From IMG/VR virus record IMGVR_UViG_3300037851_000345, positions 124,067 to 188,066 of that record: 64,000 bases of DNA; one strand, 5' to 3'. This stretch comes from a virus. Taxonomy: Duplodnaviria > Heunggongvirae > Uroviricota > Caudoviricetes. Positions 11,692 through 31,373 of this stretch are shown here, piece by piece (position 1 is the first letter of the stretch; each line of letters starts with the position of its first letter). Position numbers and translations under genes: made by a program. Below the pieces are notes generated by a model. It was not told the origin of the DNA, searched no databases, and was given only the letters and a program-made list of their open reading frames with translations.

Positions 11692-12909
11692 ATGAAACTT
11701 ACAATTATTGAGAAACTTAAAAGACCCCTAACCAGGGAAACATCTTTATTTTCCTACATTGAGGAAAAACCCTTCGAACAAATTAAATCAGAATTGGGAG
11801 CGGAACCCCTGAACATCAAAGTCAACGACAAGGGAAATCTTTACATTTGTAAATACAGCCAAATCGACAGCGATTTCTCGTACAAAATCGTGCGTCAATG
11901 TAGAGGTATTATCCTTGAAAAAGGAACGAACAAAATCATGGCTTACCCTTTCGACAAGTTCTTCAACATTCAGGAAGGCCACGCGGATAAGGTAGATTTT
12001 GGAACGGCATCAATTCAGGAAAAGGTCGATGGTAGTATTATCAAGGTATACTATTATGACAACAAATGGAATGTCGCTACCAACGGGACAATAGATGCAA
12101 AAGATGCGGAGACTGCCGATTCCTTGACAGGAAAGAAGGCAAACTTTTACGACCTTTTCTTAGACGGCATCGAAGAGCAGGGAGTAACCTTTCCTGAACT
12201 AACTGCAAATCTGACTGCGGGACTGACCTACATCTTTGAACTCGTTCATCCCATTACCCGTATTGTTGTCAAATACGAAAAACCTGGCGTGTATTTAATT
12301 GGCATTCGTTGTAACAACACAGGAACAGAAATCGATATTTTTGACGAAAGCAACAAAGAGGTTAAAAAAATCACTTCGCTAGGAATCAAGAGACCCAAAA
12401 CCTTTCAGTTCGCTTCGACAGAGGAAATGATTGCCGCCGCAGAACAGTTGACGAAGGATGAAGAGGGTTATGTCGTTAGGGACAGCGAATTCCGCAGAGT
12501 AAAGGTCAAGTCACCGTTGTACTTGAAACTCCATTATCTCAAGTCCAACAACGAACTGACCCCGAAACATTTCATAGAACTCATTCAGAAAAATGAAACG
12601 GACGAATTCCTAGGAGCCTTCCCCGAATACAAGCCGAAGATTGACGAGATTCGGGAAAAGTTGAAAAAGTATATTTCCGAAGTTCAGAAAGATTGGAAAT
12701 TTTTGGAGAATGCTTTTCTGCTTCAACGCAAGTTTGATTCCAAAGACAGGAAAGAATTTGCCGAAGTTGCAAAGGAGACAATCAACTCAGGGGCCATGTT
12801 CAAGACTTTGGATATGTATTTGCGTGGAGAGAATAATCTACCGAAGTTTATCACTAAATATATTATGGAAATGCAATCGGATAAGTTGCTGATTGCGATA
12901 GGAGTGTAG
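11692..12909 (+). CDS. rnlA: RNA ligase, T4 Rnl1-like (tRNA repair ligase)
   Basis: The KVDGS motif I matches the Rnl1 KEDGSL adenylation lysine. N-terminal CRGIIL..FDKFFN is Rnl1-like. Starts with MKLTIIE, a variant of the MKF motif. Confidence 0.7.
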   Translation: MKLTIIEKLKRPLTRETSLFSYIEEKPFEQIKSELGAEPLNIKVNDKGNLYICKYSQIDSDFSYKIVRQCRGIILEKGTNKIMAYPFDKFFNIQEGHADKVDFGTASIQEKVDGSIIKVYYYDNKWNVATNGTIDAKDAETADSLTGKKANFYDLFLDGIEEQGVTFPELTANLTAGLTYIFELVHPITRIVVKYEKPGVYLIGIRCNNTGTEIDIFDESNKEVKKITSLGIKRPKTFQFASTEEMIAAAEQLTKDEEGYVVRDSEFRRVKVKSPLYLKLHYLKSNNELTPKHFIELIQKNETDEFLGAFPEYKPKIDEIREKLKKYISEVQKDWKFLENAFLLQRKFDSKDRKEFAEVAKETINSGAMFKTLDMYLRGENNLPKFITKYIMEMQSDKLLIAIGV

Positions 12910-12927
12910 AAATATGGAGGATGGTAG

Positions 12928-13191
12928 GTGGTCTGGACCCCCGACAAACAGAAGCGGTTACAAGCACTTGGATTTTCTTACAATGAAGATAATGACAAAT
13001 GGACTAAGGTTGAAAAAGACCACGATGAATTTGTTTGGTCTACTGCAAGTTTTTTGTATTGGTTTAGTGCCGAAACAACGAATGGTGGTAAAATCAGGGG
13101 AAGTAATAAATTCCCAATTATGGACTTCGATGCCCTCATCATTTTTCTCAGGGCAATTCAGGCGATGGAGAGGTTAGAAAATGAAATTTGA
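12928..13191 (+). CDS. hypothetical protein
   Basis: 87 aa ORF; the overlapping 12914 ORF is less plausible. Confidence 0.3.
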   Translation: MVWTPDKQKRLQALGFSYNEDNDKWTKVEKDHDEFVWSTASFLYWFSAETTNGGKIRGSNKFPIMDFDALIIFLRAIQAMERLENEI

Positions 13192-13531
13192 AGTAGTAGG
13201 ACAAACACCAGAAAGGTCAACCAAGGAAGAGTTACACAAACTCCACGACAACCTTGTACATTTGATAATCAAATACGGTAAGCGATTTGACAAAAAACAC
13301 GGCAACTGGATAAAGTTGGAATTGGAAGGAAAGAAATTTTTACAGTTGGACACTTGGAATAGCAATCCTCAACTTAAAATGGGTAGTGGAGAATACGAGT
13401 ATTGGACAGGGTTTGAGCCGAGAAAGGCCTTGATTAATTTCGGAATTGACTTCGGCGGGTCTCAAACTTATGCCTCCGAAAACCAATACATAGAAACCAT
13501 CAAGGATATTGAATCGTTATACGGAAAATGA
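13181..13531 (+). CDS. hypothetical protein, MKF family (MKFEVVG)
   Basis: The ATGA start-stop overlap chain with its neighbours suggests translational coupling. Confidence 0.45.
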   Translation: MKFEVVGQTPERSTKEELHKLHDNLVHLIIKYGKRFDKKHGNWIKLELEGKKFLQLDTWNSNPQLKMGSGEYEYWTGFEPRKALINFGIDFGGSQTYASENQYIETIKDIESLYGK

Positions 13532-13977
13532 AATTCCAAATTGTAGAAACCATTTTAAAACAAGGGGTAGAAAAACCCACCTTTAAAATAGTTCACAAAC
13601 AGGAACGTCCAATTTCAGGAACTGATAGTGATTATGATGTTATTAGTTATAAAATGGAAATGTATATATCGGGGCAAAAAATTGGACAGGTAATATCGGG
13701 ATATAATGAAGAAGAAGAGCAACCAGAATCAGACGTAGATATTATCGAAAGCCAAAGAAACAAAGGATACGGTAAAATATTACTGTTAAAAAAAATACAA
13801 ATGGATTATGAATTATTGGGTAGACATTCCATGGATGCTAGAGGATTAACCGAAGACATGGGTAGAGTATACAACTCATTAGAAAGAGACGGATATATAC
13901 AGTCAAAATTTTTCGGTATTTATGAATTGACTCCAAAAGGTCAAAAGTATTTAGATAGGGAATATCCAGAAATATGA
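13528..13977 (+). CDS. hypothetical protein, MKF family (MKFQIVE)
   Basis: NKGYGKILL resembles an acyl-CoA-binding GNAT motif, but weakly. Confidence 0.45.
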   Translation: MKFQIVETILKQGVEKPTFKIVHKQERPISGTDSDYDVISYKMEMYISGQKIGQVISGYNEEEEQPESDVDIIESQRNKGYGKILLLKKIQMDYELLGRHSMDARGLTEDMGRVYNSLERDGYIQSKFFGIYELTPKGQKYLDREYPEI

Positions 13978-16506: not shown

Positions 16507-16530
16507 TTCTTTTTCAGTTAAATTGGGTCA

Positions 16531-16561
16531 GGGGCGGTCATCATGACCGCCCCTTTTTTTA
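16531..16561 (+). terminator. rho-independent terminator
   Basis: GGGGCGGTCA-tca-TGACCGCCCC stem followed by TTTTTTT. Confidence 0.65.
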
Positions 16562-16848: not shown

Positions 16849-17268
16849 ATGAAATTTAGAATCGTGGAATCTTTGGAACAGGAAGCCTTGCAATTTGATA
16901 TGCCTGAAGACTTCGTAAAAAGTTTTCCGAAAGTCTATCACGGCACAAATACCGAATTTCGAAAGTTCAACCCGAAGAAGGGTGCGCAGGGAACCATTTG
17001 GTTCACGAATGATAAGGACACAATCATCAGAGGGGAGTCGGGTGCGCAAGGGACGAAGTACGTAATGGAGAGGTATCTCACAGGGAAAAATTGGGCAGGA
17101 TGGAATGAGTACGACAAATACATGATAGTCCAATTAATACAAATGGGATACGATGGGGTCAAACTTCCCGCAGGGGAACACAACGACTATATGCTTTTTG
17201 ATAACAAAAATATTTACACGGAAAAAGAATTGATTAATCTTTGGAAGAAGGTACGAAATGGAATTTAA
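16849..17268 (+). CDS. hypothetical protein, MKF family (MKFRIVE)
   Basis: 139 aa ORF. Confidence 0.45.
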   Translation: MKFRIVESLEQEALQFDMPEDFVKSFPKVYHGTNTEFRKFNPKKGAQGTIWFTNDKDTIIRGESGAQGTKYVMERYLTGKNWAGWNEYDKYMIVQLIQMGYDGVKLPAGEHNDYMLFDNKNIYTEKELINLWKKVRNGI

Positions 17269-18646
17269 AAACTTTGGAGACATCCCGCCGCAAGCCCTTG
17301 AAATTGCGCAACTTTTTAATGACGCAGGACACGAAGCCTACCTTGTAGGCGGCTGTGTCAGAGACATCATGCTGGGCAGACAGCCGAAGGATTGGGATTT
17401 TACAACCGATGCTCTTCCTAGAGAGACGGAAAAAATCCTGACCGATGCGGGAATCAAGAATTACCCCAAAGGCGAAGATTATGGCACGTGGGCGGCAATC
17501 ATGGACAAAGAAGAGTTTGAAATCACCACCTACAGGCTTGAAGCAGACTACTCCGATGCCCGTAGGCCGAAAGCCGTATCGTTCTCCAAAGACCTGAAAG
17601 AAGATTTGGCTCGTAGGGACTTGACAATCAATGCAATGGCGTTCGATCCGTTGACAGGTGAACTTGTTGACCCCTTTGGCGGTCAGGAAGATTTGGAAAG
17701 CGGCACGTTGAAAGCAGTAGGCCGTCCTGAAGAACGCTTCCACGAGGACGCACTCAGGCTGATGCGGATAATCCGCTTCGCAAGCCGCTACGGGTTTAAA
17801 CTAGACCCAGACACGGAAAAGGCAATCAAACGCAACGCCGAAAGATTACGCTACGTTTCGTCTGAAAGAATCAAGGACGAACTTGACGGAATCCTGTTGA
17901 CCCCGAAGCCGTCTGTAGGAATCCAAATGCTTCACGACCTTGGACTGCTAAAAATAATTCTACCTGAAGTAGACGTTCTTGACAGCGTTCCACAACAAAG
18001 TCCGTGGCATCACAAGAACGTTTTCGGACACACGATGGACGTGGTTGACGGCACACCCGCACGTCTAGATGTTCGTTGGGCAACCTTGCTCCACGACATC
18101 GGCAAGGAGAAGGCAAGGGTCAGGGACGTGACGGGACGAGACCGCTTCATCGGACACGACAAAATCTCCGCAGAGTTGACAGAACCTATTCTACGCCGCC
18201 TGAAATTCAAAAATGAAGCAATCAAGAAAATCGTCAGGATGATTCTGTTGCATCAAGCCGAACCTGAGAAGCGCAACAAAATCAAGCACTTCATCAGGCA
18301 CTTGGGCGTGGACTACTTGGAAGATTGGAAGGCGATGCGCCTGGCGGATATCGGTGCGCACAAGCCTGAGAAAATTGCGGCGGGGATGGAGAAGTACGAG
18401 TCTAGAGCCGCACAGATTGACGATATCCTAGCCAAGAAAGAGCCGTACATGATTTCCCAACTCGACATCAGCGGTGATGATTTACAAGAGGTCGGAGTCC
18501 CGAAAGGCGTAATCATCGGCAAAGTGCTGAGAGGCTTACTCGACCTAGTGATAATGAACCCTGAAAAGAACAAGAAGGAGTTCTTGAAGCGTTGGGCGCA
18601 AAACAACTGGAAGCGGATTGAAAAAGAAATAAATAACAGTAGATGA
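17258..18646 (+). CDS. cca: CCA-adding tRNA nucleotidyltransferase with C-terminal HD phosphohydrolase domain
   Basis: GGCVRD..DWDF and RRDLTINAMA are class II nucleotidyltransferase motifs. HD..HDIGK is an HD domain. Confidence 0.85.
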   Translation: MEFKNFGDIPPQALEIAQLFNDAGHEAYLVGGCVRDIMLGRQPKDWDFTTDALPRETEKILTDAGIKNYPKGEDYGTWAAIMDKEEFEITTYRLEADYSDARRPKAVSFSKDLKEDLARRDLTINAMAFDPLTGELVDPFGGQEDLESGTLKAVGRPEERFHEDALRLMRIIRFASRYGFKLDPDTEKAIKRNAERLRYVSSERIKDELDGILLTPKPSVGIQMLHDLGLLKIILPEVDVLDSVPQQSPWHHKNVFGHTMDVVDGTPARLDVRWATLLHDIGKEKARVRDVTGRDRFIGHDKISAELTEPILRRLKFKNEAIKKIVRMILLHQAEPEKRNKIKHFIRHLGVDYLEDWKAMRLADIGAHKPEKIAAGMEKYESRAAQIDDILAKKEPYMISQLDISGDDLQEVGVPKGVIIGKVLRGLLDLVIMNPEKNKKEFLKRWAQNNWKRIEKEINNSR

Positions 18647-23533: not shown

Positions 23534-23554
23534 TTTTGTTGCTGTAGAGTAATT

Positions 23555-24721: not shown

Positions 24722-24755
24722 GTTTCCCTGAATTTATATAAGTTCGGAGAGGAAT

Positions 24756-24831: not shown

Positions 24832-25076
24832 GTGAAAGAAAAAGAATCTTATCATTCTAGACAAGATAAGGTTTTGAATTATTTCCCCTCTCCGTTATTT
24901 TGCAATAATTAAGAGGCAACCATTGGTGTACGGATGCACGTCCCTTGGCGGGGACAGAGAGGTTCAACTCCTCATTGGTGAGAATAGGGATTATTTCATT
25001 CATCTAGAAGGGTGGATAAAAACGATTTCTCAGCCTCTAAGCAATATTTCTTTAACACAATAACCCCTTTTATTAT

Positions 25077-25146
25077 GGGGCTATAGTATAACGGGAGTAC
25101 GACTGGCCTGCAACCAGTAAATCGGGGTTCGATTCCCCGTAGAAAT
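25077..25146 (+). tRNA. tRNA-like, anticodon arm reads TGC (Ala) but acceptor stem unresolved
   Basis: D-arm GTAT/GTAC, anticodon arm ACTGG-CCTGCAA-CCAGT and canonical T-arm CGGGG-TTCGATT-CCCCG. The 3' flank does not pair with the 5' GGGGCTA. Confidence 0.3.
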
Positions 25147-25174
25147 TTTTCAATTTTAAATTAACTATAAATAT

Positions 25175-25247
25175 GCCGCCGTATCTCAATTGGCAGAGGG
25201 TCAGTTTTGTAAACTGAATGTTGGAGGTTCGATGCCTCTCGGCGGCT
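25175..25247 (+). tRNA. tRNA-Thr (TGT)
   Basis: Acceptor GCCGCCG/CGGCGGC perfect, anticodon arm TCAGT-TTTGTAA-ACTGA and T-arm GGAGG-TTCGATG-CCTCT. Confidence 0.7.
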
Positions 25248-25251
25248 TTTC

Positions 25252-25323
25252 GCCTACTTAGTTCAATCAGCAGAATGAGAGTTTCGTAAACTTTAGACAG
25301 CGGAGCATAACCGTTAGTAGGCT
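25252..25323 (+). tRNA. tRNA-Thr (CGT); non-canonical T-loop AGCATAA
   Basis: Acceptor GCCTACT/AGTAGGC perfect and anticodon arm AGAGT-TTCGTAA-ACTTT. Confidence 0.6.
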
Positions 25324-25373
25324 GCTTACCTAATGAAGCGTCCAACGCTACGATACGTAAAGGGGATTAATTT

Positions 25374-25625
25374 ATGAATAAAAAATTAAAAGAATGGTTT
25401 GATGCTCACCCTAAAGAATGGCATGGTTGTCTGATTTGCTCACATTGGAATAAATATTCTTACTGTTATTATGCGTTCACTTCAAAAAGTGAAACCTGTG
25501 ATTTTTTTCTCAGAAAAGAAAAGGATATACCAAAAGAAAGATTGTGGAGATTTGGGAAAACCAAAAACAAAAGAAAGTTAGCATTGGTCAGAAAACAAAG
25601 TTTGCACGAATTGGCTTGTAAATAG
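25374..25625 (+). CDS. hypothetical small Cys-rich protein
   Basis: 83 aa ORF in a tRNA-free gap; CLICSHW...CYYAF...CDFF. Confidence 0.35.
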   Translation: MNKKLKEWFDAHPKEWHGCLICSHWNKYSYCYYAFTSKSETCDFFLRKEKDIPKERLWRFGKTKNKRKLALVRKQSLHELACK

Positions 25626-25626
25626 T

Positions 25627-25698
25627 GCCGCTGTAGTTTAAATAGCAGAATGAGGACTTGGTAAGTCTTAGACGGTGGGGCAGTACCACTCTGCGGCT
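25627..25698 (+). tRNA. tRNA-Thr (GGT); T-loop GGCAGTA
   Basis: Acceptor GCCGCTG/CTGCGGC at 6 of 7 bp, anticodon arm AGGAC-TTGGTAA-GTCTT. Confidence 0.55.
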
Positions 25699-25930
25699 TA
25701 TCGCTTATCTCATCTACCAAGTGTAGAAGGAGTTGGGCCATCGTTATGCGTTGGCCTTTCTGATAACCTAACCGCTAGCGGCGTGGAAGGACACCGCATT
25801 GTAGCGAAAGCCTATGTCCTCAATTGGACAAAACCCGTAACCCGAAAGACCAGGGTGGCAAGCGATACGGTTAAACTACAATGGCTAAATAACGGTCAGC
25901 GGGAATCAAGCCCCGCCTAGCGGTATTGTG

Positions 25931-25997
25931 CCCTATGATGTAATGGAAAGCAACAATCGCTTCAAACGATTGAGAAAGGGTTCGAATCCTTTTAGGG
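25931..25997 (+). tRNA. tRNA-like gene with canonical anticodon loop CTTCAAA (anticodon TCA, reads UGA); acceptor and D-stem weak
   Basis: The anticodon stem CAATCG/CGATTG is 6 bp and the T-arm AAGGG-TTCGAAT-CCTTT is canonical. The acceptor is approximate. Confidence 0.35.
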
Positions 25998-26009
25998 GTG
26001 CGAATTTCT

Positions 26010-26080
26010 GCGGGTTTGGTGTAATAGTAGCACCTGACGTTGCCAACGTTAGAGTATCGGGGCAGAGTCGATAATCCGCT
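26010..26080 (+). tRNA. tRNA-Gly (GCC); T-loop GGCAGAG
   Basis: Acceptor GCGGGTT/AATCCGC and anticodon arm TGACG-TTGCCAA-CGTTA. Confidence 0.55.
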
Positions 26081-26085
26081 TTTGT

Positions 26086-26168
26086 GGAGAGATGTCAGAG
26101 TGGTCTATCGTGGCGGTTTCGAAAGCCGTTCCCCGAAAGGGGCGCAAGTTCGAATCTTGCTCTCTCCG
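26086..26168 (+). tRNA. tRNA-Ser (CGA), type II
   Basis: Acceptor GGAGAGA/TCTCTCC perfect, anticodon arm GCGGT-TTCGAAA-GCCGT, variable hairpin CCCC-GAAA-GGGG and T-arm GCAAG-TTCGAAT-CTTGC. Confidence 0.6.
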
Positions 26169-26173
26169 TGTAG

Positions 26174-26244
26174 GACGGCGTGGCCGAACAGTCAGGCAGC
26201 GGTCTGCAAAACCGTCTAAATGGGTGCGACTCCCTTCGCCGCCT
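26174..26244 (+). tRNA. tRNA-Cys (GCA)
   Basis: Acceptor GACGGCG/CGCCGCC at 6 of 7 bp, anticodon arm GCGGT-CTGCAAA-ACCGT and T-loop TGCGACT. Confidence 0.5.
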
Positions 26245-26257
26245 TTTGAAATCTTAT

Positions 26258-26329
26258 GCGGGTTTGGTGTCAATAGTAGCATAAAAGTCTTCCAAACTTT
26301 AGGTACGGGAGCAAAGCCCGTAACCCGCT
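26258..26329 (+). tRNA. tRNA-Gly (TCC); T-loop AGCAAAG
   Basis: Acceptor GCGGGTT/AACCCGC perfect and anticodon arm AAAGT-CTTCCAA-ACTTT perfect. Confidence 0.6.
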
Positions 26330-26652
26330 CCAAAAATATGAGAGGTAAAAATAGAACAAGATAAACATGAATGTGAGTACAACAAAAGTCTTTTTTTAGT
26401 GGAAAAAAACTTCAGACTTTTCAGACACAAGAAAGTCTACTTTACTTGGGCGAAGGCTCTTGACGGGTGTATTGAATTTGGCTCCCATTTGACCTTTGCC
26501 AAAAATAATCGCAGATTTGAGATTTATTTTGACTTAGGACTTTTACGAAGAGTAATTATTATCAATATGCACGATGTTAGAGTGGGGGTGTAGTTTAGCG
26601 TATTTTTGATAACGGATGTCTCCGAAAACAATAAATAGTAGTAGGAGACAAA

Positions 26653-27375
26653 ATGTATTATTGTAAAATATGTGGAAAAGGATTTGAAATCAAACAACAA
26701 TTGGGTGGACATCGGGCTACCTGTGGAACTGTAAGGAAAAAAGGATATAAAAAAAGAACATATAGGGGCTTACCCATTAAATCCAAACCACCCAAAAATC
26801 CATTTGGAAAATGTAAATTTTGTGGGGAACAAGTAGGAAGAAGTATTTATCACCATGTCCCTGTGTGCATCAAAAATCCCAATAGAGAAAAAAATATTGA
26901 AGCACATCTTAAAAATCTAAAAAGAGGAAAAGACAATTCTTCCTCTAATCCTGAAATCAGACAGAAAATAGCAGAAACAGCAAAAAGAAAAATATTAGAA
27001 GGAACATGGCACAATTCATTTTCAAGAGCAAGAACCCATATTTACAAAGGTATTCATTTTTATGGCACTTGGGAACTGAAGTATGCAAAATATTTAGACA
27101 AAAAGAAAGTTAAATGGATAAAAAATAAAAAGACATTTCCTTATACCTATGAAGGAGAAGAACATAGATATACTCCTGATTTTTACTTGGAAAAAGAAGA
27201 TTCTTATGTGGAGATAAAAGGATACCCAACAGAAAAAGACAGAGCAAAATGGAGAGATTTTCCACACCCTTTAAAAGTTCTTTTTGGTAAAGATTTATTT
27301 GAAATGAATATTATTAATTGTTATAGAGATTTAGAAACTAAAAAAGATGTAAGGCGTGGGAGTGTGGCGCAATAG
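26653..27375 (+). CDS. homing-endonuclease-like protein (C2H2-type zinc finger N-terminus + PD-(D/E)XK-like C-terminal domain)
   Basis: CKICGKGF..GGHRATC is a C2H2-like finger. C-terminal YTPDFYLEKEDSYVEIKGY resembles the PD..E.K core shared with 21404 and 29556. Sits inside the tRNA array. Confidence 0.5.
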   Translation: MYYCKICGKGFEIKQQLGGHRATCGTVRKKGYKKRTYRGLPIKSKPPKNPFGKCKFCGEQVGRSIYHHVPVCIKNPNREKNIEAHLKNLKRGKDNSSSNPEIRQKIAETAKRKILEGTWHNSFSRARTHIYKGIHFYGTWELKYAKYLDKKKVKWIKNKKTFPYTYEGEEHRYTPDFYLEKEDSYVEIKGYPTEKDRAKWRDFPHPLKVLFGKDLFEMNIINCYRDLETKKDVRRGSVAQ

Positions 27376-27427
27376 GATAACGCGGCATCCCGTTAAGTTG
27401 AAGATTGGTGGTTCGAGTCCATCCACT
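27358..27427 (+). tRNA. tRNA-like gene, CCA encoded; anticodon unresolved (8-nt loop CGGCATCC)
   Basis: Acceptor GGGAGTG/CACTCCC perfect and T-arm GGTGG-TTCGAGT-CCATC canonical. The middle region does not give a standard anticodon arm. Confidence 0.35.
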
Positions 27428-27432
27428 CCCGC

Positions 27433-27524
27433 CATTTTTGTTGCGGTGGGGAAATTGGTAGACCCGCTACTTTGAGGTGGTAGTGCAGTAATGCATGAGA
27501 GTTCGACCCTCTCCCGCAACACCA
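27433..27524 (+). tRNA. tRNA-Leu (GAG), type II, CCA encoded
   Basis: Acceptor GTTGCGG/CCGCAAC perfect, anticodon arm CTACT-TTGAGGT-GGTAG, variable hairpin TGCA-GTAA-TGCA and T-arm GAGAG-TTCGACC-CTCTC. Confidence 0.65.
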
Positions 27525-27535
27525 ACGCAATTTTT

Positions 27536-27640
27536 GAATGAATGTTGAAAGCAAAGGTTACTAGGTCGCACCTGAGTGAGTTCGATTCTCCAAATCGCCG
27601 CGGTCGGCGTGGAGTTCGATTCCCTAATCAACATTCATTC
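27536..27640 (+). repeat. 13-bp inverted repeat (GAATGAATGTTGA / TCAACATTCATTC) enclosing about 79 nt with two direct copies of a T-arm-like GAGTTCGATTC motif
   Basis: The two arms are a perfect reverse complement. The interior carries tgagtgagttcgattctcc and gtggagttcgattccct. Confidence 0.5.
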
Positions 27641-27647
27641 TTTTTAT

Positions 27648-27723
27648 GGCAAGGTCGCTTACGTGGTCAGAGCATCCGCCTGAAGCGCGGAAAATGGGTG
27701 TTCGATTCACCCCCTTGCCACCA
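27648..27723 (+). tRNA. tRNA-Phe (GAA), CCA encoded
   Basis: Acceptor GGCAAGG/CCTTGCC perfect, anticodon arm TCCGC-CTGAAGC-GCGGA and T-arm GGGTG-TTCGATT-CACCC. Confidence 0.7.
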
Positions 27724-27736
27724 TTTGAATTATTAT

Positions 27737-27820
27737 GCCTAGGTGGTGGAATTGGGATACCGTGCGGACTTAAAATCCGTTGGCCTTCGGGCCATGTGGG
27801 TTCGAACCCCACCCTAGGCA
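27737..27820 (+). tRNA. tRNA-Leu (TAA), type II
   Basis: Acceptor GCCTAGG/CCTAGGC perfect, anticodon arm GCGGA-CTTAAAA-TCCGT, variable hairpin GGCC-TTCG-GGCC and T-arm GTGGG-TTCGAAC-CCCAC. Confidence 0.65.
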
Positions 27821-27827
27821 GTTTTGT

Positions 27828-27901
27828 GGGGTCGTAATTCAACGGCAGAATAGTTGACTTTTAATCAATCTATAGAAGTTCGATTCTTCTCGGCCCCACC
27901 A
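27828..27901 (+). tRNA. tRNA-Lys (TTT), CCA encoded
   Basis: Acceptor GGGGTCG/CGGCCCC, D-arm ATTC/GAAT, anticodon arm GTTGA-CTTTTAA-TCAAT and T-arm AGAAG-TTCGATT-CTTCT. Confidence 0.65.
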
Positions 27902-28070
27902 TTTTTTGCAATTTTAACCGACAGCGGTGTGGATAGAGTACACACTATCGTTTGCGTGTTTTCTAGAGGAATACTAGACAGATGGACGATTCCTGCACCT
28001 AATCTAGAAGGTAAAGATACGATGTAAAAGTAGGAAAGTTGGAATATAAATTCCAACCTGTCGGTTTTAT

Positions 28071-28142
28071 GGGTCTATATGTCAACGGCTAGACGAACTG
28101 ACTCTTAATCAGTAGATGGAGATTCGATTTCTCCTAGACCCA
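28071..28142 (+). tRNA. tRNA-Lys (CTT)
   Basis: Acceptor GGGTCTA/TAGACCC perfect, anticodon arm ACTGA-CTCTTAA-TCAGT perfect and T-arm GGAGA-TTCGATT-TCTCC. Confidence 0.7.
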
Positions 28143-28148
28143 CTTTGC

Positions 28149-28222
28149 GCCCTGTTAGTTCAACGGATTAAGAATATGGTGCTACGAACGCCAAGATGGA
28201 AGTTCGATTCTTCCACGGGGTA
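28149..28222 (+). tRNA. tRNA-Arg (ACG)
   Basis: Acceptor GCCCTGT/ACGGGGT with 2 G-U pairs, D-arm GTTC/GAAT, anticodon arm TGGTG-CTACGAA-CGCCA and T-arm GGAAG-TTCGATT-CTTCC. Confidence 0.6.
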
Positions 28223-28238
28223 CTTTGAATTTTTAGAT

Positions 28239-28312
28239 AGGGGATTATGTTAACGGTAGACTACTTCGTTTACACCGAAGGAGCGCGGGTTCGATTCCTG
28301 CATCCCCTACCA
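28239..28312 (+). tRNA. tRNA-Val (TAC), CCA encoded
   Basis: Acceptor AGGGGAT/ATCCCCT perfect, anticodon arm CTTCG-TTTACAC-CGAAG perfect and T-arm GCGGG-TTCGATT-CCTGC. Confidence 0.65.
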
Positions 28313-28322
28313 TTTTATTTTT

Positions 28323-28415
28323 GGATGCGTCAAACGTAATTGGTAACGTCCCGGTCTTGAAAATCGGTCGCGGGGTTAACTACTTCGCGTGGGAGTTCAA
28401 GTCTCTCCGCATCCG
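28323..28415 (+). tRNA. tRNA-Ser (TGA), type II
   Basis: Acceptor GGATGCG/CGCATCC perfect, anticodon arm CCGGT-CTTGAAA-ATCGG, long variable hairpin and T-arm GGGAG-TTCAAGT-CTCTC. Confidence 0.6.
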
Positions 28416-28418
28416 CAT

Positions 28419-28503
28419 GGAAGTTTGACAGAGTAATAATGTGCCGACCTGCTAAGTCGTGGCCTACGTAACAGTAGCGTGTGTGCGACCCACACAACTT
28501 CCG
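28419..28503 (+). tRNA. tRNA-Ser (GCT), type II
   Basis: Acceptor GGAAGTT/AACTTCC perfect, anticodon arm CCGAC-CTGCTAA-GTCGT at 4 bp and T-arm GTGTG-TGCGACC-CACAC. Confidence 0.5.
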
Positions 28504-28561
28504 AATTGAATTTTTATTGTTTTGATATTATAAATACCGCCATAGTATTTGGGGGTGTAAA

Positions 28562-28804
28562 ATGTCAGAACAAAACAAAGTAGAAGTAAGCCACATGGGA
28601 CGTTACGCAGACAACTTGCAAAATGTGTTGGACAAACTAGGAGCCGTGAAATTGTTGAGAGCAGACTACGAGAATGACTACCAAGGCCACGTAGACGTAG
28701 ACGTATTATTGGGGGACGGCAAGGTGTTCAGTTACAACTACTCCTACGGGAGTTGTAGTGGTTGCGATGAGTGGGAAGATAGGTCTTATCAGACGGAGAG
28801 GTAG
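28562..28804 (+). CDS. hypothetical small protein
   Basis: 80 aa ORF with SD gggggtgtaaaatg in a gap of the tRNA array. Confidence 0.4.
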   Translation: MSEQNKVEVSHMGRYADNLQNVLDKLGAVKLLRADYENDYQGHVDVDVLLGDGKVFSYNYSYGSCSGCDEWEDRSYQTER

Positions 28805-28943
28805 AGGCTGTGATGTTAGAGGAAGCAACCATTTTCGCAAATTGGCACGACTACAGTTTATTCATCAACAAGGCAAGGCTGAAAAACGTTCTAGGTGTTG
28901 AATAGGGGGCTGAAAGGCTCTCTTCTTCTACAAGCAATTTTAT

Positions 28944-29015
28944 GTCCCCGTGGTGTAACGGATAGCGCAAGGGTCTTCTAAATCCTTAGTAGGGGTTCAA
29001 TTCCCTTCGGGGATG
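28944..29015 (+). tRNA. tRNA-Arg (TCT)
   Basis: Acceptor GTCCCCG/CGGGGAT, anticodon arm AGGGT-CTTCTAA-ATCCT and T-arm AGGGG-TTCAATT-CCCTT. Confidence 0.6.
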
Positions 29016-29020
29016 CATAT

Positions 29021-29091
29021 AGCCGTTTGGTGAAATAGTATCACACAGGGCTTTGAACTCTGAGGCGGTGGGGCAGAACCATCAACGGCTG
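29021..29091 (+). tRNA. tRNA-Gln (TTG); T-loop GGCAGAA
   Basis: Acceptor AGCCGTT/AACGGCT perfect, D-arm GTGA/TCAC and anticodon arm CAGGG-CTTTGAA-CTCTG. Confidence 0.6.
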
Positions 29092-29153
29092 AAGAATTAA
29101 TACTGACAGCGGCATGAAGAAATCGTAAACACGAGCATCCGGCAGGCCAAGTG

Positions 29154-29176
29154 AAAAAATTAAGGCCTAATTTTTT
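29154..29176. terminator. AU-rich palindromic hairpin (possible bidirectional terminator)
   Basis: aaaaaattaaggcctaatttttt is near-perfectly palindromic around GGCC. Confidence 0.25.
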
Positions 29177-29359
29177 CGTAAAGTTTAGCGGAGATTGGAA
29201 AACCTTTTGTATCCTGTATCATTCAAATATGCGTCTCTAATGAATTTGAATGTTGAGATACATTTGCGAATGGCAAGCCACCGATGAACACATCTAGATG
29301 TGTTTATTAGTAGTCATCCAATTTAGTTGGGGTAACGTCCAACCTGTCAATTTATATAT

Positions 29360-29431
29360 TGGGTGGTAAGTCAATAGAAGACGGCTGGCGTCGGAAGCCA
29401 GAAGTTGTGGGTGCAAGTCCCACCCACCTAA
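29360..29431 (+). tRNA. tRNA-Pro (CGG)
   Basis: Acceptor TGGGTGG/CCACCTA, anticodon arm CTGGC-GTCGGAA-GCCAG perfect and T-arm GTGGG-TGCAAGT-CCCAC. Confidence 0.5.
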
Positions 29432-29438
29432 TTTTTAT

Positions 29439-29514
29439 GGGGTTAGTGGTGTTAATAGTAGCACAACTGATTGTGACTCAGTAGGACAGGATGCAAATTC
29501 CTGCTATCCCTCCA
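29439..29514 (+). tRNA. tRNA-His (GTG) with genome-encoded G-1 and CCA
   Basis: An extra 5' G precedes the acceptor GGGTTAG/CTATCCC. D-arm GTGT/GCAC, anticodon arm ACTGA-TTGTGAC-TCAGT perfect and T-arm CAGGA-TGCAAAT-TCCTG. Confidence 0.6.
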
Positions 29515-29555
29515 AAATTTGAACTCAAAACTTATCAAAAACAATAAATAATAGT

Positions 29556-30476
29556 ATGAAGGTTCAACTCACTAAAATATGTTTGGAATGTGGTAAGTCT
29601 TTTATTTTTAAAGATAAGAGACAAAAATTTTGTAATAATTCTTGCTCTGCCAAATACAGCAACAAACACAGAAATTACAATCCATCAGATGATAAAAGAA
29701 CAAAGCAAATGAATTGTTCGGGTTGTGGTAAAAAAATTCTGGTCGATATTAGGGCAGGTCAAAATGTTAAATGTAAAAAATGTAATGAACTGCGAAGAAA
29801 AAAATATTCCTCACGATATATAATTAAAAATGATAAATTAATATGTAAATATTGTGGACAAGAAAAATGTTTGCGGCCTGATGTGTGTAGAAAACACCAA
29901 ATATTTCCCACATTAATAAACTATTTTGGATTTGATAAAACCAAAATAGGAACAATAAAAATTTATGAAGAATTTGACCGAATAAAAAATAAAATTATTG
30001 AAGATTATTGGAATAAAAAATTAAGTACTTTAGATTTATCAAAAAAATATATGTATTCCTCAAATAATATACGACATTTTTTAAAGGAAATGAATATTTC
30101 TTTAAGAAATTTATCTTCATCAATAAGAAATGCTGTTTTAAATGGTAAAAATATATCACACGGAATAAACCAATATAAATGCGGTTGGCACACTACTTGG
30201 GATAATAAACAGGTTTTTTATCGAAGTTCTTACGAATTGAATTATGCCGAAGAATTGGATAAACAAAAAATAGAATATGAAATGGAAAAATTAAGAATAC
30301 TTTATTGGGACACACAAAAACAAATACAAAGAGTAGCCATTTCTGATTTTTATATTCCATCTCAAAATAAAATAATAGAAATTAAATCTCCTTATACTTT
30401 AAATGAACAAAATATGAAAGATAAAGAAAAAGCATATAAAGAACACGGATATAAATTTGAATTAATTGTTATGTAA
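29556..30476 (+). CDS. homing-endonuclease-like protein (Cys-rich zinc fingers + PD-(D/E)XK-like C-terminus); paralog of 21404
   Basis: The N-terminal FCNNSCSAKYSNKHRNYNPSDDKRTK..C.GCGKK aligns with the 21404 protein. C-terminal DFYIPSQNKIIEIK resembles a D..E.K core. Confidence 0.55.
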   Translation: MKVQLTKICLECGKSFIFKDKRQKFCNNSCSAKYSNKHRNYNPSDDKRTKQMNCSGCGKKILVDIRAGQNVKCKKCNELRRKKYSSRYIIKNDKLICKYCGQEKCLRPDVCRKHQIFPTLINYFGFDKTKIGTIKIYEEFDRIKNKIIEDYWNKKLSTLDLSKKYMYSSNNIRHFLKEMNISLRNLSSSIRNAVLNGKNISHGINQYKCGWHTTWDNKQVFYRSSYELNYAEELDKQKIEYEMEKLRILYWDTQKQIQRVAISDFYIPSQNKIIEIKSPYTLNEQNMKDKEKAYKEHGYKFELIVM

Positions 30477-30477
30477 A

Positions 30478-30565
30478 CGCTAGCGTGTTGGAACTGGTAT
30501 TCATCGTGCGCTTAGAACGCACGGCCTGAAAAGGATTGGGGGTTCGAATCCCTTCGCTAGCACCA
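30478..30565 (+). tRNA. tRNA-Leu (TAG), type II, CCA encoded
   Basis: Acceptor GCTAGCG/CGCTAGC perfect, anticodon arm GTGCG-CTTAGAA-CGCAC perfect and T-loop TTCGAAT. Confidence 0.65.
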
Positions 30566-30590
30566 AGTATTTAATTTTAGGAAAGATAAA

Positions 30591-31373
30591 ATGAAGAAAG
30601 ATGACATTGGAAATAGGATGAAATCGAACTACGAGGACAGGACACGAATTTGTCTGCCCCGTAGGACGCACACCATTATCCGAATTGACGGCAAGGCCTT
30701 TCACACGTACACGCGTGGGCTTACCCGCCCGTTCGATGATGGGTTCATCGAAGATATGGACGCAACTGCGGCCTATCTCTGCAAGAACATTCAAAACGCC
30801 AAGTTTGCCTACGTGCAGTCTGATGAGATTTCTATTCTTCTTTCAGATTACGATAAGATTACAACGGATGCTTGGTTCGACAACAACATTCAAAAAATGG
30901 CAAGCGTGTCGGCAAGTATGGCAACGAGGGCTTTCAATGAGGCAAGGACGAAGAGGCTTATTTATGACGAAAGTCCATTAGTTCCTGCACACGAAGTTCC
31001 TATCCGAATGAAGTGGGCAGAGTTCGACAGCAGGGTGTTTCAAATCCCTGAGTGGACTGAGGTTGAGAACTACTTCATTTGGCGACAACAGGATTGCGTT
31101 TGCAACAGTATCCTTTCAGTTGCACAATCTCTCTACTCGCACAAGGAAATGAACGGTAAGAACACTTCAGAACTTCAAGAAATGATTTTTCAGAAAGGAA
31201 CGAATTGGAACGACTTTGCTCCCAAGTACAAGAGGGGTAGAGTTATCAGGAAAGACCATACCGTTGTCGGTGAAACGGTACGTAGTAAATGGATTTCCGT
31301 TGAGCCACCGTCATTTACGCAAGAGCGGCAAATTATGTGCTTCTACGTGGAGAAGGCGGGGCAAGTATTTTAA
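30591..31373 (+). CDS. Thg1-like protein (tRNA-His guanylyltransferase family; 3'-5' nucleotidyltransferase, tRNA 5'-end repair)
   Basis: IRIDGKAFHTYTRGL and YVQSDEISILL match the Thg1/TLP catalytic motifs. Confidence 0.7.
   Translation: MKKDDIGNRMKSNYEDRTRICLPRRTHTIIRIDGKAFHTYTRGLTRPFDDGFIEDMDATAAYLCKNIQNAKFAYVQSDEISILLSDYDKITTDAWFDNNIQKMASVSASMATRAFNEARTKRLIYDESPLVPAHEVPIRMKWAEFDSRVFQIPEWTEVENYFIWRQQDCVCNSILSVAQSLYSHKEMNGKNTSELQEMIFQKGTNWNDFAPKYKRGRVIRKDHTVVGETVRSKWISVEPPSFTQERQIMCFYVEKAGQVF

What the first reader, a model, noticed from the sequence alone, without database searches (positions are those of the whole stretch)
11692..31373. Complete tRNA repair and maturation toolkit co-located with a roughly 33-gene tRNA array (probable counter-defence against anticodon nucleases)
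The window encodes a T4 Rnl1-like RNA ligase (11692) and a second KxDG polynucleotide ligase (59529). It also encodes a P-loop Pnk-like kinase (18643) with a separate HAD phosphatase (52259). Further there is a CCA-adding enzyme fused to an HD phosphohydrolase (17258), and a Thg1-like 3'-5' nucleotidyltransferase (30591) embedded in the tRNA array next to a tRNA-His with encoded G-1. In T4, Pnkp plus Rnl1 reverse PrrC anticodon-nuclease cleavage of tRNA-Lys. This phage adds CCA-end repair, 5'-end repair (Thg1-like proteins in bacteria repair tRNA 5' ends) and its own tRNA supply. Together they make a multi-layered answer to host tRNA-targeting defences such as PrrC, RloC, VapC-like toxins and CCA-trimming systems. 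The kinase and phosphatase are split here, unlike the fused T4 Pnkp.
Basis: partly seen in the sequence, partly recalled or inferred. Interest (0 to 1): 0.8.

Follow-up and report, generated by a model that had tools for sequence, protein, structure and literature searches.

The report
Jumbo phage tRNA array with repair enzymes
An uncultivated giant phage carries about 33 of its own tRNA genes together with a full set of enzymes that finish, heal and re-join tRNAs; the genes are real, but this combination has already been described for giant phages, so it is a rich new example and not a new kind of system.

Summary
Profile and structure searches confirm six named genes. They are an Rnl1-family RNA ligase (11692), a DraRnl/NgrRnl-type (Rnl5) RNA ligase (59529) and a Pnk-type 5' kinase (18643). 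The others are a class II CCA-adding enzyme with an HD domain (17258), a bacterial-type Thg1-like protein (30591) and a stand-alone HAD phosphatase (52259). The HAD model's nearest solved folds are Pnkp 3'-phosphatase domains. The array holds 33-34 tRNA genes.

Corrections:
- The set is two clusters (11.7-31.5 kb and 49-60.6 kb) split by a packaging block.
- CCA+HD is the ordinary bacterial architecture.
- tRNA-His has G at -1 but U73, not C73. It lies 1 kb from Thg1 because a homing-endonuclease-like gene was inserted.

Twenty of the 34 tRNA genes lack encoded CCA, so maturation of phage tRNAs explains the CCA enzyme as well as repair does.

The interpretation matches a published model (Iyer et al. 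2021; Anantharaman et al. 2010). No activity was tested here and the host is unknown.

Verdict: new member of a known kind, modest interest. An unexplained variant tRNA elbow in about a third of the array is the most unusual by-product.

The parts
11692..12909 (+). Rnl1-family ATP-dependent RNA ligase (T4 gp63/RnlA-like)
   Evidence: PF09511 at 87 bits. phrog_562 at E 1e-55. T4 Rnl1 2c5u at E 1e-12, with K112 (KVDG) and other essential residues aligned. It falls below the NCBIfam equivalog cut-off (95.6 against 242). It is 76% identical in relative L064.
16530..16554 (+). Strong terminator-like hairpin preceding the ART-CCA-kinase-Macro unit
   Evidence: An 11-bp stem with 8 GC pairs followed by a T run. 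This is a consensus scan only.
16849..17268 (+). Stand-alone ART-PolyVal ADP-ribosyltransferase domain; its end overlaps the start of the CCA gene
   Evidence: PF18760 at E 9e-7, just under the cut-off. There are 854 hits in the representative library, many as one domain within very long proteins (up to about 4,200 aa). It is present only in the window and the closest relative L067, so it is an accessory gene and not part of the core.
17258..18646 (+). Class II CCA-adding enzyme with an HD phosphohydrolase domain
   Evidence: PF01743 at E 2e-40, PF12627, PF01966 (HD) and PF13735. The best NCBIfam hits are CCA enzymes at 279 and 276 bits, against PcnB at 165. The GG...DWD, EDALR and HD (LLHDIGK) motifs are visible in the sequence. 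It is 93% identical in L067 and 79% in L068.
18643..19143 (+). Pnk-type polynucleotide 5'-kinase; its start overlaps the CCA stop codon (ATGA)
   Evidence: AAA_33 at E 9e-14. TIGR04075 kinase segment at E 6e-11. CthPnk 4jst at E 7e-6, with GSGKST, D38 and R41 aligned. phrog_505 'polynucleotide kinase'. It aligns to the N-terminal half of kinase-HD fusion proteins next to Thg1 in other phages.
19380..19790 (+).
22174..22370 (+). Two perfect sigma-70 consensus promoters flanking the first tRNA gene
   Evidence: TTGACA-17-TATAAT with TG extension at 22174-22202 and 22342-22370. There are six perfect matches in the window against 0.02 expected.
22221..31538 (+). Array of 33-34 tRNA genes covering 19 amino acids (none for Asp), interrupted by endonuclease-like ORFs and the Thg1-like gene
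   Evidence: ARAGORN finds 24. Rfam finds 31 at or above gathering. Ser-UGA 28323 and Tyr 23869 come from ARAGORN only, and Met 23209 is a weak candidate. Gene order is syntenic with L002, L003 and L004. Fourteen of the 34 encode CCA.
29439..29514 (+). tRNA-His(GUG) with encoded G-1, discriminator U73 and encoded CCA
   Evidence: ARAGORN at relaxed threshold and Rfam at 48.4 bits. The flanking sequence was read directly. Relatives carry G-1/C73 (L002, XacN1) or G-1/A73 (L031).
29556..30476 (+). Homing-endonuclease-like ORF inserted between tRNA-His and tRNA-Leu(UAG)
   Evidence: Endonuclease and HNH PHROGs, and DUF7487. It is absent at this site in L002, where His and Leu(UAG) are 3 nt apart. 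L004 has two paralogues at 58-60% identity elsewhere in its array.
30591..31373 (+). Bacterial-type Thg1-like protein (3'-5' nucleotidyltransferase) embedded between tRNA-Leu(UAG) and tRNA-Leu(CAA)
   Evidence: PF04446 at E 1e-28. phrog_4717 at E 1e-81. BtTLP 4kgk at E 2e-58. D33 and D78/E79 are present. The position of the eukaryotic HINNLYN motif reads VCNSILS. The gene sits 26 nt after one tRNA and ends 2 nt before the next.
49262..50249 (+).
   Evidence: PF10127 at 73.6 bits against a cut-off of 23. phrog_388 at E 7e-65. The promoter is at 49262-49290. It is 83-95% identical in four relatives.
52259..52774 (+). Stand-alone HAD (DxDxT) phosphatase whose nearest solved folds are Pnkp 3'-phosphatase domains
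59529..60569 (+). DraRnl/NgrRnl-type (Rnl5) RNA ligase with an N-terminal OB domain
   Evidence: TIGR02306 at 185.7 bits, above its cut-off. PF21189 and PF09414. NgrRnl 5cot at E 2e-51. phrog_968 at E 5e-76.

Best explanation
This is the translation-support module of an uncultivated jumbo phage (source contig about 223 kb). It does two linked jobs.

1. Supply and maturation.
- An array of 33-34 tRNA genes begins with two perfect sigma-70 consensus promoters.
- Because of those promoters, the array is probably read early by host RNA polymerase (inferred).
- Twenty of these genes lack an encoded 3' CCA, so the phage's own CCA-adding enzyme completes them.
- The embedded Thg1-like protein checks or rebuilds tRNA 5' ends.
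- That may include the G-1 of the phage tRNA-His, which has U73 in place of C73.

2. Heal-and-seal repair of broken tRNAs.
- The Pnk-type kinase phosphorylates the 5' end.
- RlaP replaces a lost 3' nucleotide where needed.
- The Rnl1-type ligase seals breaks in the anticodon loop.
- The Rnl5-type ligase seals nicks in duplex regions.
- The CCA enzyme restores trimmed 3' ends.
- The Macro protein probably removes ADP-ribose-type adducts or by-products.

What is shown here: the family memberships, intact catalytic motifs, gene order and its conservation. What is inferred from characterised homologues: every substrate, the order of steps, and the role against host tRNA nucleases.
For: - Family and motif evidence for every enzyme comes.
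- The CCA stop and kinase start overlap (ATGA). The core unit CCA/HD, kinase, Macro is conserved in two relatives at 67-93% identity, while flanking genes differ.
- Gene-fusion evidence links the kinase and HD domains. phrog_6931 matches both the HD region of the CCA enzyme and the kinase. Six other phage loci carry a single ORF of about 300 aa with an N-terminal kinase and a C-terminal HD domain.
- Neighbourhood evidence ties Thg1 to repair. In 62 viral Thg1 loci (+-10 kb), 17 carry at least one of CCA/HD, Pnk, Rnl5, RlaP or Rnl1. In L020, L022, L025 and L026 the kinase-HD ORF ends 27 nt before Thg1, with an Rnl5 or Rnl1 ligase upstream.
- tRNA genes lie within 10 kb of Thg1 in 31 of the 62 loci.
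- Fourteen of the 34 tRNA genes encode CCA.
- Perfect sigma-70 promoters precede the array and RlaP.
- Published biochemistry supports the assigned activities. T4 Pnkp plus Rnl1 counteract PrrC (PMC2610378). The E. coli CCA enzyme's HD domain removes 2',3'-cyclic phosphate (PMC6961547, citing Yakunin 2004). HD-Pnk is an end-healing enzyme (PMC6097658, citing Munir and Shuman 2017). RlaP adds 1-2 nucleotides to damaged RNA 3' ends and restores aminoacylation (PMC12776372). TLPs repair 5'-truncated tRNAs by templated addition (PMC4820378).
Against: - No activity, substrate or expression data exist for this phage, and the host is unknown.
- The genes do not form one operon. RlaP, HAD and Rnl5 lie 18-28 kb from the array, beyond a packaging block, and near an ATP-dependent DNA ligase. 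They could therefore act on DNA or on other RNAs.
- The Rnl1 homologue scores far below the T4 RnlA equivalog cut-off.
- The CCA enzyme is below the equivalog cut-offs, so its exact specificity (CCA, CC or A) is not settled.
- tRNA-His is within 10 kb of Thg1 in only 3-4 of 62 loci. In relative L004 no tRNA-His was detected beside Thg1, although Thg1 is retained.
Confidence: 0.7

Rival explanations
1. Maturation only. The CCA enzyme and the Thg1-like protein exist to process the phage's own, partly unusual tRNAs. This would make translation independent of a host whose enzymes are limiting or shut off. They are not there to undo host nuclease damage, and the ligases and kinase serve unrelated tasks.
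For: - Twenty of the 34 tRNA genes lack encoded CCA.
- About a third of the tRNAs have a variant elbow that host enzymes may handle poorly.
- tRNA-His has U73, so retention of G-1 by RNase P is uncertain.
- Thg1 lies inside the array, and the order His, Leu, Thg1 is conserved in L002 and L003.
Against: - This reading does not explain two RNA ligases, a Pnk-type kinase, a Pnkp-like phosphatase and RlaP. None of these has a role in ordinary bacterial tRNA maturation.
- In other phages Thg1 sits directly beside kinase-HD fusions and RNA ligases, often with no tRNA genes within 10 kb.
Confidence: 0.15
2. Mixed bag. The distal genes (RlaP, HAD phosphatase, Rnl5 ligase) belong to DNA or general nucleic-acid end processing together with the neighbouring ATP-dependent DNA ligase. 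Only the left-hand cluster concerns tRNA, so the 'complete toolkit' is a coincidence of annotation.
For: - The DNA ligase at 45701-46918 lies 2.4 kb upstream of RlaP.
- T4 Pnkp-type phosphatases also act on DNA 3'-phosphates (established knowledge).
- The two clusters are separated by a minus-strand packaging block.
Against: - RlaP acted only on RNA among E. coli macromolecules in the one biochemical study (PMC12776372).
- The 59529 protein passes the equivalog cut-off for RNA ligase of the DraRnl type. It matches NgrRnl, which requires an RNA 3'-OH strand (established knowledge).
- In other phages RlaP is adjacent to CCA, and Rnl5 to kinase-HD and Thg1.
Confidence: 0.1
3. ADP-ribosylation conflict module. 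The ART, CCA/HD, kinase and Macro unit mainly writes and erases ADP-ribose marks, on host targets or on phage nucleic acids attacked by DarT-like or RNA-ADP-ribosylating toxins. tRNA end repair would be secondary.
For: - An ART-PolyVal gene heads the unit.
- The protein after the kinase has a Macro fold closest to the DarG antitoxin macrodomain.
Against: - The ART gene is missing from the 239-kb relative, while CCA, kinase and Macro are retained.
- Macro domains are already known partners of Thg1-PNK neighbourhoods and of RNA-repair by-product removal (PMC2904730, PMC7824862).
Confidence: 0.05

Closest known systems
Jumbo phage RNA-repair plus tRNA-provisioning systems (Iyer, Anantharaman, Krishnan, Burroughs and Aravind 2021, Viruses 13:63, section 3.4.9; based on Burroughs and Aravind 2016)
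   Same: - The components match: phage tRNAs, Rnl1/Rnl2-type ATP-dependent ligases, polynucleotide kinase, HAD or HD phosphatases (including stand-alone HAD), RlaP, CCA-adding enzyme, Thg1 and Macro domains.
- The proposed purpose is the same: countering host attacks on tRNA.
   Different: - This phage is not among the isolates analysed there. It is a divergent uncultivated lineage: TerL is about 26% identical to T4-like phages and there is no nucleotide match in GenBank phages.
- It combines nearly all the optional parts in one genome. The paper calls Thg1 only sporadically present.
- Its Thg1 gene sits inside the tRNA array.
T4 Pnkp (PseT) plus Rnl1 (gp63) repair of PrrC-cleaved tRNA-Lys
   Same: - It has an Rnl1-family ligase with the essential residues conserved, a P-loop 5' kinase with the Asp/Arg active-site pair, and a DxDxT phosphatase with the T4 Pnkp phosphatase fold.
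- It carries its own tRNA-Lys(UUU) and tRNA-Lys(CUU) genes.
   Different: - The kinase and phosphatase are separate genes 33 kb apart.
- The kinase is closer to the bacterial Pnkp (C. thermocellum) kinase than to T4 PseT, and it is coupled to an HD-containing CCA enzyme.
- The ligase is only distantly related to T4 Rnl1, well below the equivalog cut-off.
Thg1-PNK-(Macro)-(RNA ligase) gene neighbourhoods (Anantharaman, Iyer and Aravind 2010, Biol Direct 5:43) and bacterial Thg1-like proteins such as BtTLP
   Same: - The Thg1-like protein matches BtTLP at E 2e-58, and the eukaryotic tRNA-His anticodon-recognition motif is absent.
- A Pnk kinase, a Macro-fold protein and RNA ligases are in the same genome.
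- Tight Thg1, kinase-HD and ligase operons occur in other phage contigs.
   Different: In this phage Thg1 is 11.5 kb from the kinase-Macro pair and is flanked by tRNA genes instead.
HD-Pnk end-healing enzyme of Runella slithyformis (Munir and Shuman 2017) and the E. coli CCA enzyme HD domain (Yakunin et al. 2004)
   Same: An HD phosphoesterase domain is paired with a Pnk kinase. The two are fused in phrog_6931 and in six phage loci found here.
   Different: - Here the HD domain is part of a full CCA-adding enzyme and the kinase is a separate, translationally coupled gene.
- In the phage fusions seen here the order is kinase then HD, the reverse of Runella.
Xanthomonas jumbo phage XacN1 (AP018399)
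   Same: - It carries the closest Thg1 homologue in GenBank phages at 49% identity.
- It has an RNA ligase 4 kb away, a large tRNA array 13 kb away, and a tRNA-His with encoded G-1.
   Different: - Thg1 is outside the array.
- tRNA-His has the canonical C73.
- No variant-elbow tRNAs were seen.

Membership tests
Rnl1 family RNA ligase (T4 RnlA type) | Covalent nucleotidyltransferase motifs, including the KxDG lysine and the Rnl1-specific essential residues | tested here: met
   PF09511 at 87 bits against a cut-off of 28.3. K112, R71, K89/F91, E183, E258/G259 and K271/K273 align to T4 K99, R54, K75/F77, E159, E227/G228 and K240/K242. The T4 residue numbers come from my own knowledge.
Rnl1 family RNA ligase (T4 RnlA type) | Equivalog-level similarity to T4 RnlA, including the tRNA-specific C-terminal domain | tested here: inconclusive
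   TIGR02308 scores 95.6 bits against a cut-off of 242. The alignment reaches model position 334 of 373, so part of the C-terminal domain aligns.
Rnl1 family RNA ligase (T4 RnlA type) | Seals breaks in the tRNA anticodon loop | not testable with these tools
   Needs biochemistry.
Rnl5 (DraRnl/NgrRnl) RNA ligase | N-terminal OB domain followed by a nucleotidyltransferase domain, at equivalog-level score | tested here: met
   PF21189 at residues 2-85 and PF09414 at 168-335. TIGR02306 at 185.7 bits, above the cut-off of 151.15. NgrRnl 5cot at E 2e-51 across 326 residues.
Polynucleotide 5'-kinase (Pnk; bacterial Pnkp kinase module) | P-loop GxxGxGKS/T plus the catalytic Asp and Arg (D38/R41 in CthPnk) | tested here: met
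   GISGSGKST, D38 and R41 align with CthPnk GSSGSGKST, D38 and R41. TIGR04075 kinase segment at E 6e-11.
Polynucleotide 5'-kinase (Pnk; bacterial Pnkp kinase module) | Phosphorylates 5'-OH polynucleotide ends and not small molecules | not testable with these tools
   AAA_33 also includes small-molecule kinases. Support is contextual only: fusion with HD, and adjacency to the CCA enzyme, Thg1 and ligases.
T4 Pnkp-type polynucleotide 3'-phosphatase (HAD/DxDxT) | DxDxT nucleophile motif and HAD motifs II-IV | tested here: met
   D14-x-D16-x-T18, T88, K127 and D145/D146 are invariant or nearly so in 38 homologues.
T4 Pnkp-type polynucleotide 3'-phosphatase (HAD/DxDxT) | Specific relationship to Pnkp phosphatase domains as opposed to generic HAD phosphatases | tested here: inconclusive
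Class II CCA-adding enzyme (bacterial, HD-containing) | Pol-beta head domain with GG...DxD, the EDxxR nucleotide-selection motif, an RNA-binding domain and an HD domain | tested here: met
   PF01743, PF12627, PF01966 and PF13735. GGCVRD, DWD, EDALR and LLHDIGK are seen in the translation.
Class II CCA-adding enzyme (bacterial, HD-containing) | Full CCA specificity, as opposed to CC-adding, A-adding or poly(A) polymerase activity | tested here: inconclusive
   The best models are CCA enzymes (279.5 and 276.4 bits) but both are below their cut-offs (438.8 and 290). PcnB scores 165. Relative L068 carries a second paralogue next to it.
Thg1-like protein (TLP, bacterial type) | Thg1 palm domain with the metal-binding carboxylates | tested here: met
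   PF04446 at 99.9 bits against a cut-off of 29.2. D33 in RIDGKAF and D78/E79 in QSDEIS. BtTLP 4kgk at E 2e-58 over residues 4-249.
Eukaryotic-type Thg1 (tRNA-His specific G-1 addition opposite A73) | HINNLYN motif that reads the tRNA-His anticodon | tested here: not met
   The aligned segment reads DCVCNSILS, where Candida Thg1 has DCHINNLYN. The protein is therefore filed as a TLP and not as a bona fide Thg1.
RlaP nucleotidyltransferase | PF10127 domain above the gathering score | tested here: met
   73.6 bits against a cut-off of 23, covering residues 15-142.
RlaP nucleotidyltransferase | Adjacent to an RNA ligase gene (the property that gave the family its name) | tested here: not met
   Its nearest ligase-type gene is the ATP-dependent DNA ligase 2.4 kb upstream. 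The RNA ligases are 9 kb and 36 kb away. In four other phage loci RlaP abuts the CCA enzyme instead.
Macro domain | Macro fold | tested here: met
Macro domain | Sequence-level membership of Pfam Macro (PF01661) | tested here: not met
   One of 26 homologues hits PF01661, at E 0.12.
Bacterial tRNA-His identity set | Encoded G-1 paired with C73 | tested here: not met
   G is at -1 but the discriminator is U73. Relatives L002 and XacN1 have G-1:C73, and L031 has A73.

The most novel reading that the evidence does not exclude
About a third of the tRNAs in this phage lineage have a rebuilt elbow. The T-loop reads N54-G55-C56 where U-U-C is normal, and this is strictly coupled to a D-loop that lacks the G18-G19 pair.

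The phage's own CCA-adding enzyme, Thg1-like protein and repair enzymes may be specialised to process and maintain these non-standard tRNAs. Host maturation enzymes, and perhaps host tRNA-targeting nucleases, would then recognise them poorly.

On this reading the toolkit and the array form a semi-orthogonal tRNA system, and not merely a spare-parts kit.
Probability: 0.12. Interest if true: 0.65.

Novelty: new member of a known kind. Interest (0 to 1): 0.3.

Why it matters
If the inferred functions hold, this genome is one of the fullest natural collections of tRNA end-repair activities in a single phage. It has two RNA ligase types, a kinase, two candidate 3' phosphoesterases, RlaP, a CCA enzyme, a 3'-5' polymerase and a Macro protein, all beside a near-complete tRNA set.

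That makes it a convenient source of enzymes for testing two things. The first is how the repair steps are ordered. The second is which host tRNA nucleases they counter.

It does not change the current picture, which already predicts such combinations in jumbo phages.

The variant-elbow tRNAs are unexplained. They could be worth a separate study of how tRNA-processing enzymes read the elbow.

Tried and rejected
1. UGA recoding. ARAGORN called two 'tRNA-SeC(TCA)' genes.
   - TGA ends 29 of 98 likely genes, including the CCA enzyme and kinase genes.
   - The 25931 gene is an orthologue of tRNA-Arg(UCG) in relatives, with a G36-to-A change and a damaged acceptor stem.
   - Recoding is rejected.
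2. Thg1 needed because G-1 is not encoded. All tRNA-His genes found near Thg1 homologues have G at -1, so this is rejected as a general rule. Only the discriminator base varies (C, U or A).
3. The ART gene as a Tpt1/KptA-type RNA 2'-phosphotransferase.
   - It belongs to ART-PolyVal, a domain that often occurs within very long multidomain proteins.
   - It has no PDB sequence match and is absent from one relative.
   - It was not pursued further.
4. The 447-aa ORF upstream of RlaP (47922-49265) as a hidden ligase. It has no family hit, has hydrophobic (possibly membrane-spanning) stretches at both ends by inspection, and no KxDG motif was noticed by eye. Rejected.
5. Nucleotide search against GenBank phages gave nothing.
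6. An exact-sequence look-up of the Thg1 protein found no record. The source contig was found through the HAD and ART proteins instead.
8. The paper by Burroughs and Aravind 2016 could not be read. Its content is cited only through PMC7824862.
9. Host identification was not achieved.

Full report
**What the window is**

GC content is about 41%. The window has no nucleotide match in 50,697 GenBank phage records. It encodes a large terminase on the minus strand (34655-36577) that is only about 26% identical to T4-like terminases.

Proteins identical to two of its ORFs come from a contig of 222,974 bp. It is therefore part of an uncultivated jumbo phage.

Three IMG/VR contigs are relatives with the same gene order:
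- IMGVR_UViG_3300037461_000469 (168.8 kb)
- IMGVR_UViG_3300014204_000109 (239 kb)
- IMGVR_UViG_3300029288_000336

Identities to them are 82%, 74% and 78% for Thg1, 93% and 79% for the CCA enzyme, 76% for Rnl1, and 83-95% for RlaP.

**Checking the observation**

- **11692-12909, Rnl1-family RNA ligase.** PF09511 scores 87 bits, phrog_562 gives E 1e-55, and T4 Rnl1 2c5u gives E 1e-12. The KxDG lysine and the other essential Rnl1 residues align. The protein is far below the T4 RnlA equivalog cut-off.
- **59529-60569, DraRnl/NgrRnl (Rnl5) RNA ligase.** It passes the equivalog cut-off, has the N-terminal OB domain, and matches NgrRnl at E 2e-51.
- **18643-19143, Pnk-type kinase.** Its best solved relative is the kinase module of C. 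thermocellum Pnkp. The P-loop, catalytic Asp and Arg all align.
- **17258-18646, class II CCA-adding enzyme with HD domain**. This is the ordinary bacterial architecture and not a special fusion. The E. coli HD domain removes 2',3'-cyclic phosphate (PMC6961547, citing Yakunin et al. 2004).
- **30591-31373, bacterial-type Thg1-like protein.** It matches BtTLP at E 2e-58 and keeps both carboxylate motifs. It lacks the eukaryotic anticodon-reading motif.

**The tRNA array**

- ARAGORN at default settings finds 24 tRNAs.
- Rfam with permissive filters finds 31 at or above the gathering score.
- Ser(UGA) and Tyr are ARAGORN-only, giving 33. One weak Met candidate gives 34. 'Roughly 33' is correct.
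- Nineteen amino acids are covered, and there is none for Asp.
- Three genes look degenerate: 24757, 25081 and 25931.
- Gene order is syntenic with the relatives.
- Two perfect sigma-70 consensus promoters flank the first tRNA gene. The window has six perfect matches where 0.02 are expected, and one of them lies 9 nt before the RlaP start codon.
- Only 14 of the 34 genes encode the 3' CCA.

**tRNA-His and Thg1**

- tRNA-His(GUG) is at 29440-29514.
- In the closest relative the order is Pro(CGG), His, Leu(UAG), Thg1, Leu(CAA), Trp, with 3 nt between His and Leu.
- In the window a 964-nt insertion carrying an endonuclease-like ORF (29556-30476) separates His from Leu(UAG).
- In the 239-kb relative no tRNA-His was detected at that site, yet Thg1 is kept.
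- Near other Thg1 homologues, tRNA-His genes also have G-1, with C73 or A73.
- Thg1 is therefore not explained by a missing G-1 in the gene.

1. **RlaP at 49299-50249** (PF10127 at 73.6 bits). This family adds one or two nucleotides to damaged RNA 3' ends (PMC12776372).
2. **A Macro-fold protein at 19380-19790**, directly after the kinase.
   - It has no Pfam hit.
   - It follows the kinase in both relatives that cover this region.
3. **A stand-alone ART-PolyVal gene (16849-17268)** heads the same unit, but only in the window and its closest relative.

The conserved core is therefore CCA/HD, kinase, Macro. The CCA stop codon and kinase start codon overlap.

**Evidence that the parts work together**

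- phrog_6931 matches both the HD region of the CCA enzyme and the kinase.
- Among 62 viral loci holding Thg1 homologues, six have one ORF of about 300 aa with an N-terminal kinase and a C-terminal HD domain.
- In four of those loci this ORF ends 27 nt before Thg1 and follows an Rnl5 or Rnl1 ligase.
- Four further loci have Thg1, then RlaP abutting the CCA enzyme.
- In all, 17 of the 62 loci have at least one repair gene within 10 kb of Thg1, and 31 of the 62 have tRNA genes.
- Many of these loci are related to one another, so the counts are not independent events.

**How it most likely works**

See the best explanation. The module supplies and matures phage tRNAs and also heals and seals broken ones. 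The families, motifs, gene order and conservation are shown here. The substrates, the order of steps and the counter-defence purpose are inferred from characterised homologues.

**Comparison with what is known**

- Iyer et al. 2021 (PMC7824862, section 3.4.9) describe jumbo phages as combining tRNAs with Rnl1/Rnl2/RtcB ligases, polynucleotide kinases, and HAD phosphatases either fused to the kinase or stand-alone.
- The same paper lists HD-like phosphatases, RlaP, CCA-adding enzymes, sporadic Thg1 and Macro domains, all as answers to host attacks on tRNA.
- Anantharaman et al. 2010 (PMC2904730) had already reported Thg1-PNK-(Macro)-(RNA ligase) neighbourhoods and proposed a repair role, including in large DNA viruses.
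- Thg1 homologues are annotated in 162 GenBank phage records.
- XacN1 has Thg1, an RNA ligase and a tRNA array within 20 kb.

The finding is therefore a new and unusually complete member of a known kind.

**Limits**

- No activity or expression data exist.
- The host is unknown.
- The genes form two clusters, not one.
- The exact specificities of the Rnl1 homologue, the CCA enzyme and the HAD phosphatase are unsettled.

**By-product**

About a third of the array's tRNAs have T-loops reading N-G-C in place of T-T-C, together with D-loops that lack GG.

- Across the window and its three relatives the coupling is 27 of 27 for N-G-C without GG, against 77 of 79 for T-T-C with GG.
- Only 3 such T-loops occur among about 200 tRNAs in the other Thg1 loci.
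- I found no description of this in one literature search. It remains unexplained.

Noticed in passing
window 23377-29514 (e.g. 23377, 24651, 25252, 25627, 26010, 26258, 29021, 29360, 29440, 26174, 23869, 28419); also L002, L003, L004: Twelve to thirteen of the 33-34 tRNA genes have T-loops N54-G55-C56 (TGCAAAT, AGCATAA, GGCAGTA) in place of T-T-C. Their D-loops have a single G ('ATAG' or 'CAG') in place of GG. In the window and three relatives the coupling is 27 of 27, against 77 of 79 for T-T-C with GG. Only 3 such T-loops were seen among about 200 tRNAs in other Thg1 loci, and none in XacN1. This suggests a compensated change of the G18:U55 elbow contact. ARAGORN at default settings misses most of these genes.
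   Followed up: partly
window 25929-26001 and 24756-24831: Two genes were called 'tRNA-SeC(TCA)'. The first is the orthologue of tRNA-Arg(UCG) in L002 and L004, with anticodon G36 changed to A and two acceptor-stem mismatches. The second has normal acceptor, D and T arms but an odd anticodon loop (CGTCAAA), and its L002 orthologue has a different loop (GCAGAA). TGA is a normal stop codon here (29 of 98 ORFs), so there is no recoding.
   Followed up: partly
window 9336, 22174, 22342, 44885, 49262, 54324 (+ strand): Six perfect TTGACA-N16-18-TATAAT promoters occur where 0.02 are expected by chance. Most have a TG extension. They precede the tRNA array, RlaP, the metallopeptidase/VWA gene and others. 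They are probably early promoters read by host sigma-70 polymerase.
   Followed up: partly
window 19380-19790: This is a highly conserved family of about 134 aa (over 3,300 homologues at 60-85% identity, phrog_2072, no Pfam model). It folds as a Macro domain closest to DarG and TARG1. The family appears to lack a sequence-level annotation in Pfam and PHROGs.
   Followed up: yes
window 16849-17268: A stand-alone ART-PolyVal ADP-ribosyltransferase domain overlaps the start of the CCA enzyme gene. Homologues often occur as one domain within very long multidomain proteins. Its target is unknown.
   Followed up: partly
window 14621-15724: A KamA-family radical SAM lysine 2,3-aminomutase homologue (TIGR03820 at 383 bits, below its equivalog cut-off; also similar to EF-P beta-lysylation EpmB) lies between Rnl1 and the CCA operon. 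It is 85% identical in the closest relative and was not found in the part of the 239-kb relative that was fetched.
   Followed up: no
window 21404-22177, 26653-27375, 29556-30476: Three endonuclease-like ORFs lie at or inside the tRNA array: a DUF559/Vsr-like protein, a C2H2 zinc finger plus endonuclease I-like protein, and a DUF7487/HNH-like protein. The last one has two paralogues at other sites in the array of L004, which is consistent with mobile homing endonucleases.
   Followed up: partly
window 40860-42410 (- strand): A 516-aa protein with three PAS domains and no recognised output domain is encoded beside head and packaging genes. A sensor-type protein is unexpected in this position in a phage.
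   Followed up: no
window 341-8026: This is a glycan-modification cluster. It contains a sialyltransferase-like protein, group 1 glycosyltransferases, a sulfotransferase, two methyltransferases and a GDSL-like hydrolase.
   Followed up: no
window 31541-34051: An SPFH/Band 7 protein and a B12-binding radical SAM protein directly follow the last tRNA gene. Both are conserved in L002 and L004. The listed GTG start at 31434 overlaps two tRNA genes and is probably too far upstream.
   Followed up: no
L068 5386-6270 (IMGVR_UViG_3300014204_000109): The 239-kb relative has a second, shorter CCA-enzyme paralogue (37% identity) between the CCA enzyme and the kinase. This may be a split of CC-adding and A-adding activities.
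   Followed up: no
window 54380-55666: A DUF2201 metallopeptidase plus VWA-like protein, a type usually paired with a MoxR ATPase, is preceded by a perfect sigma-70 promoter.
   Followed up: no
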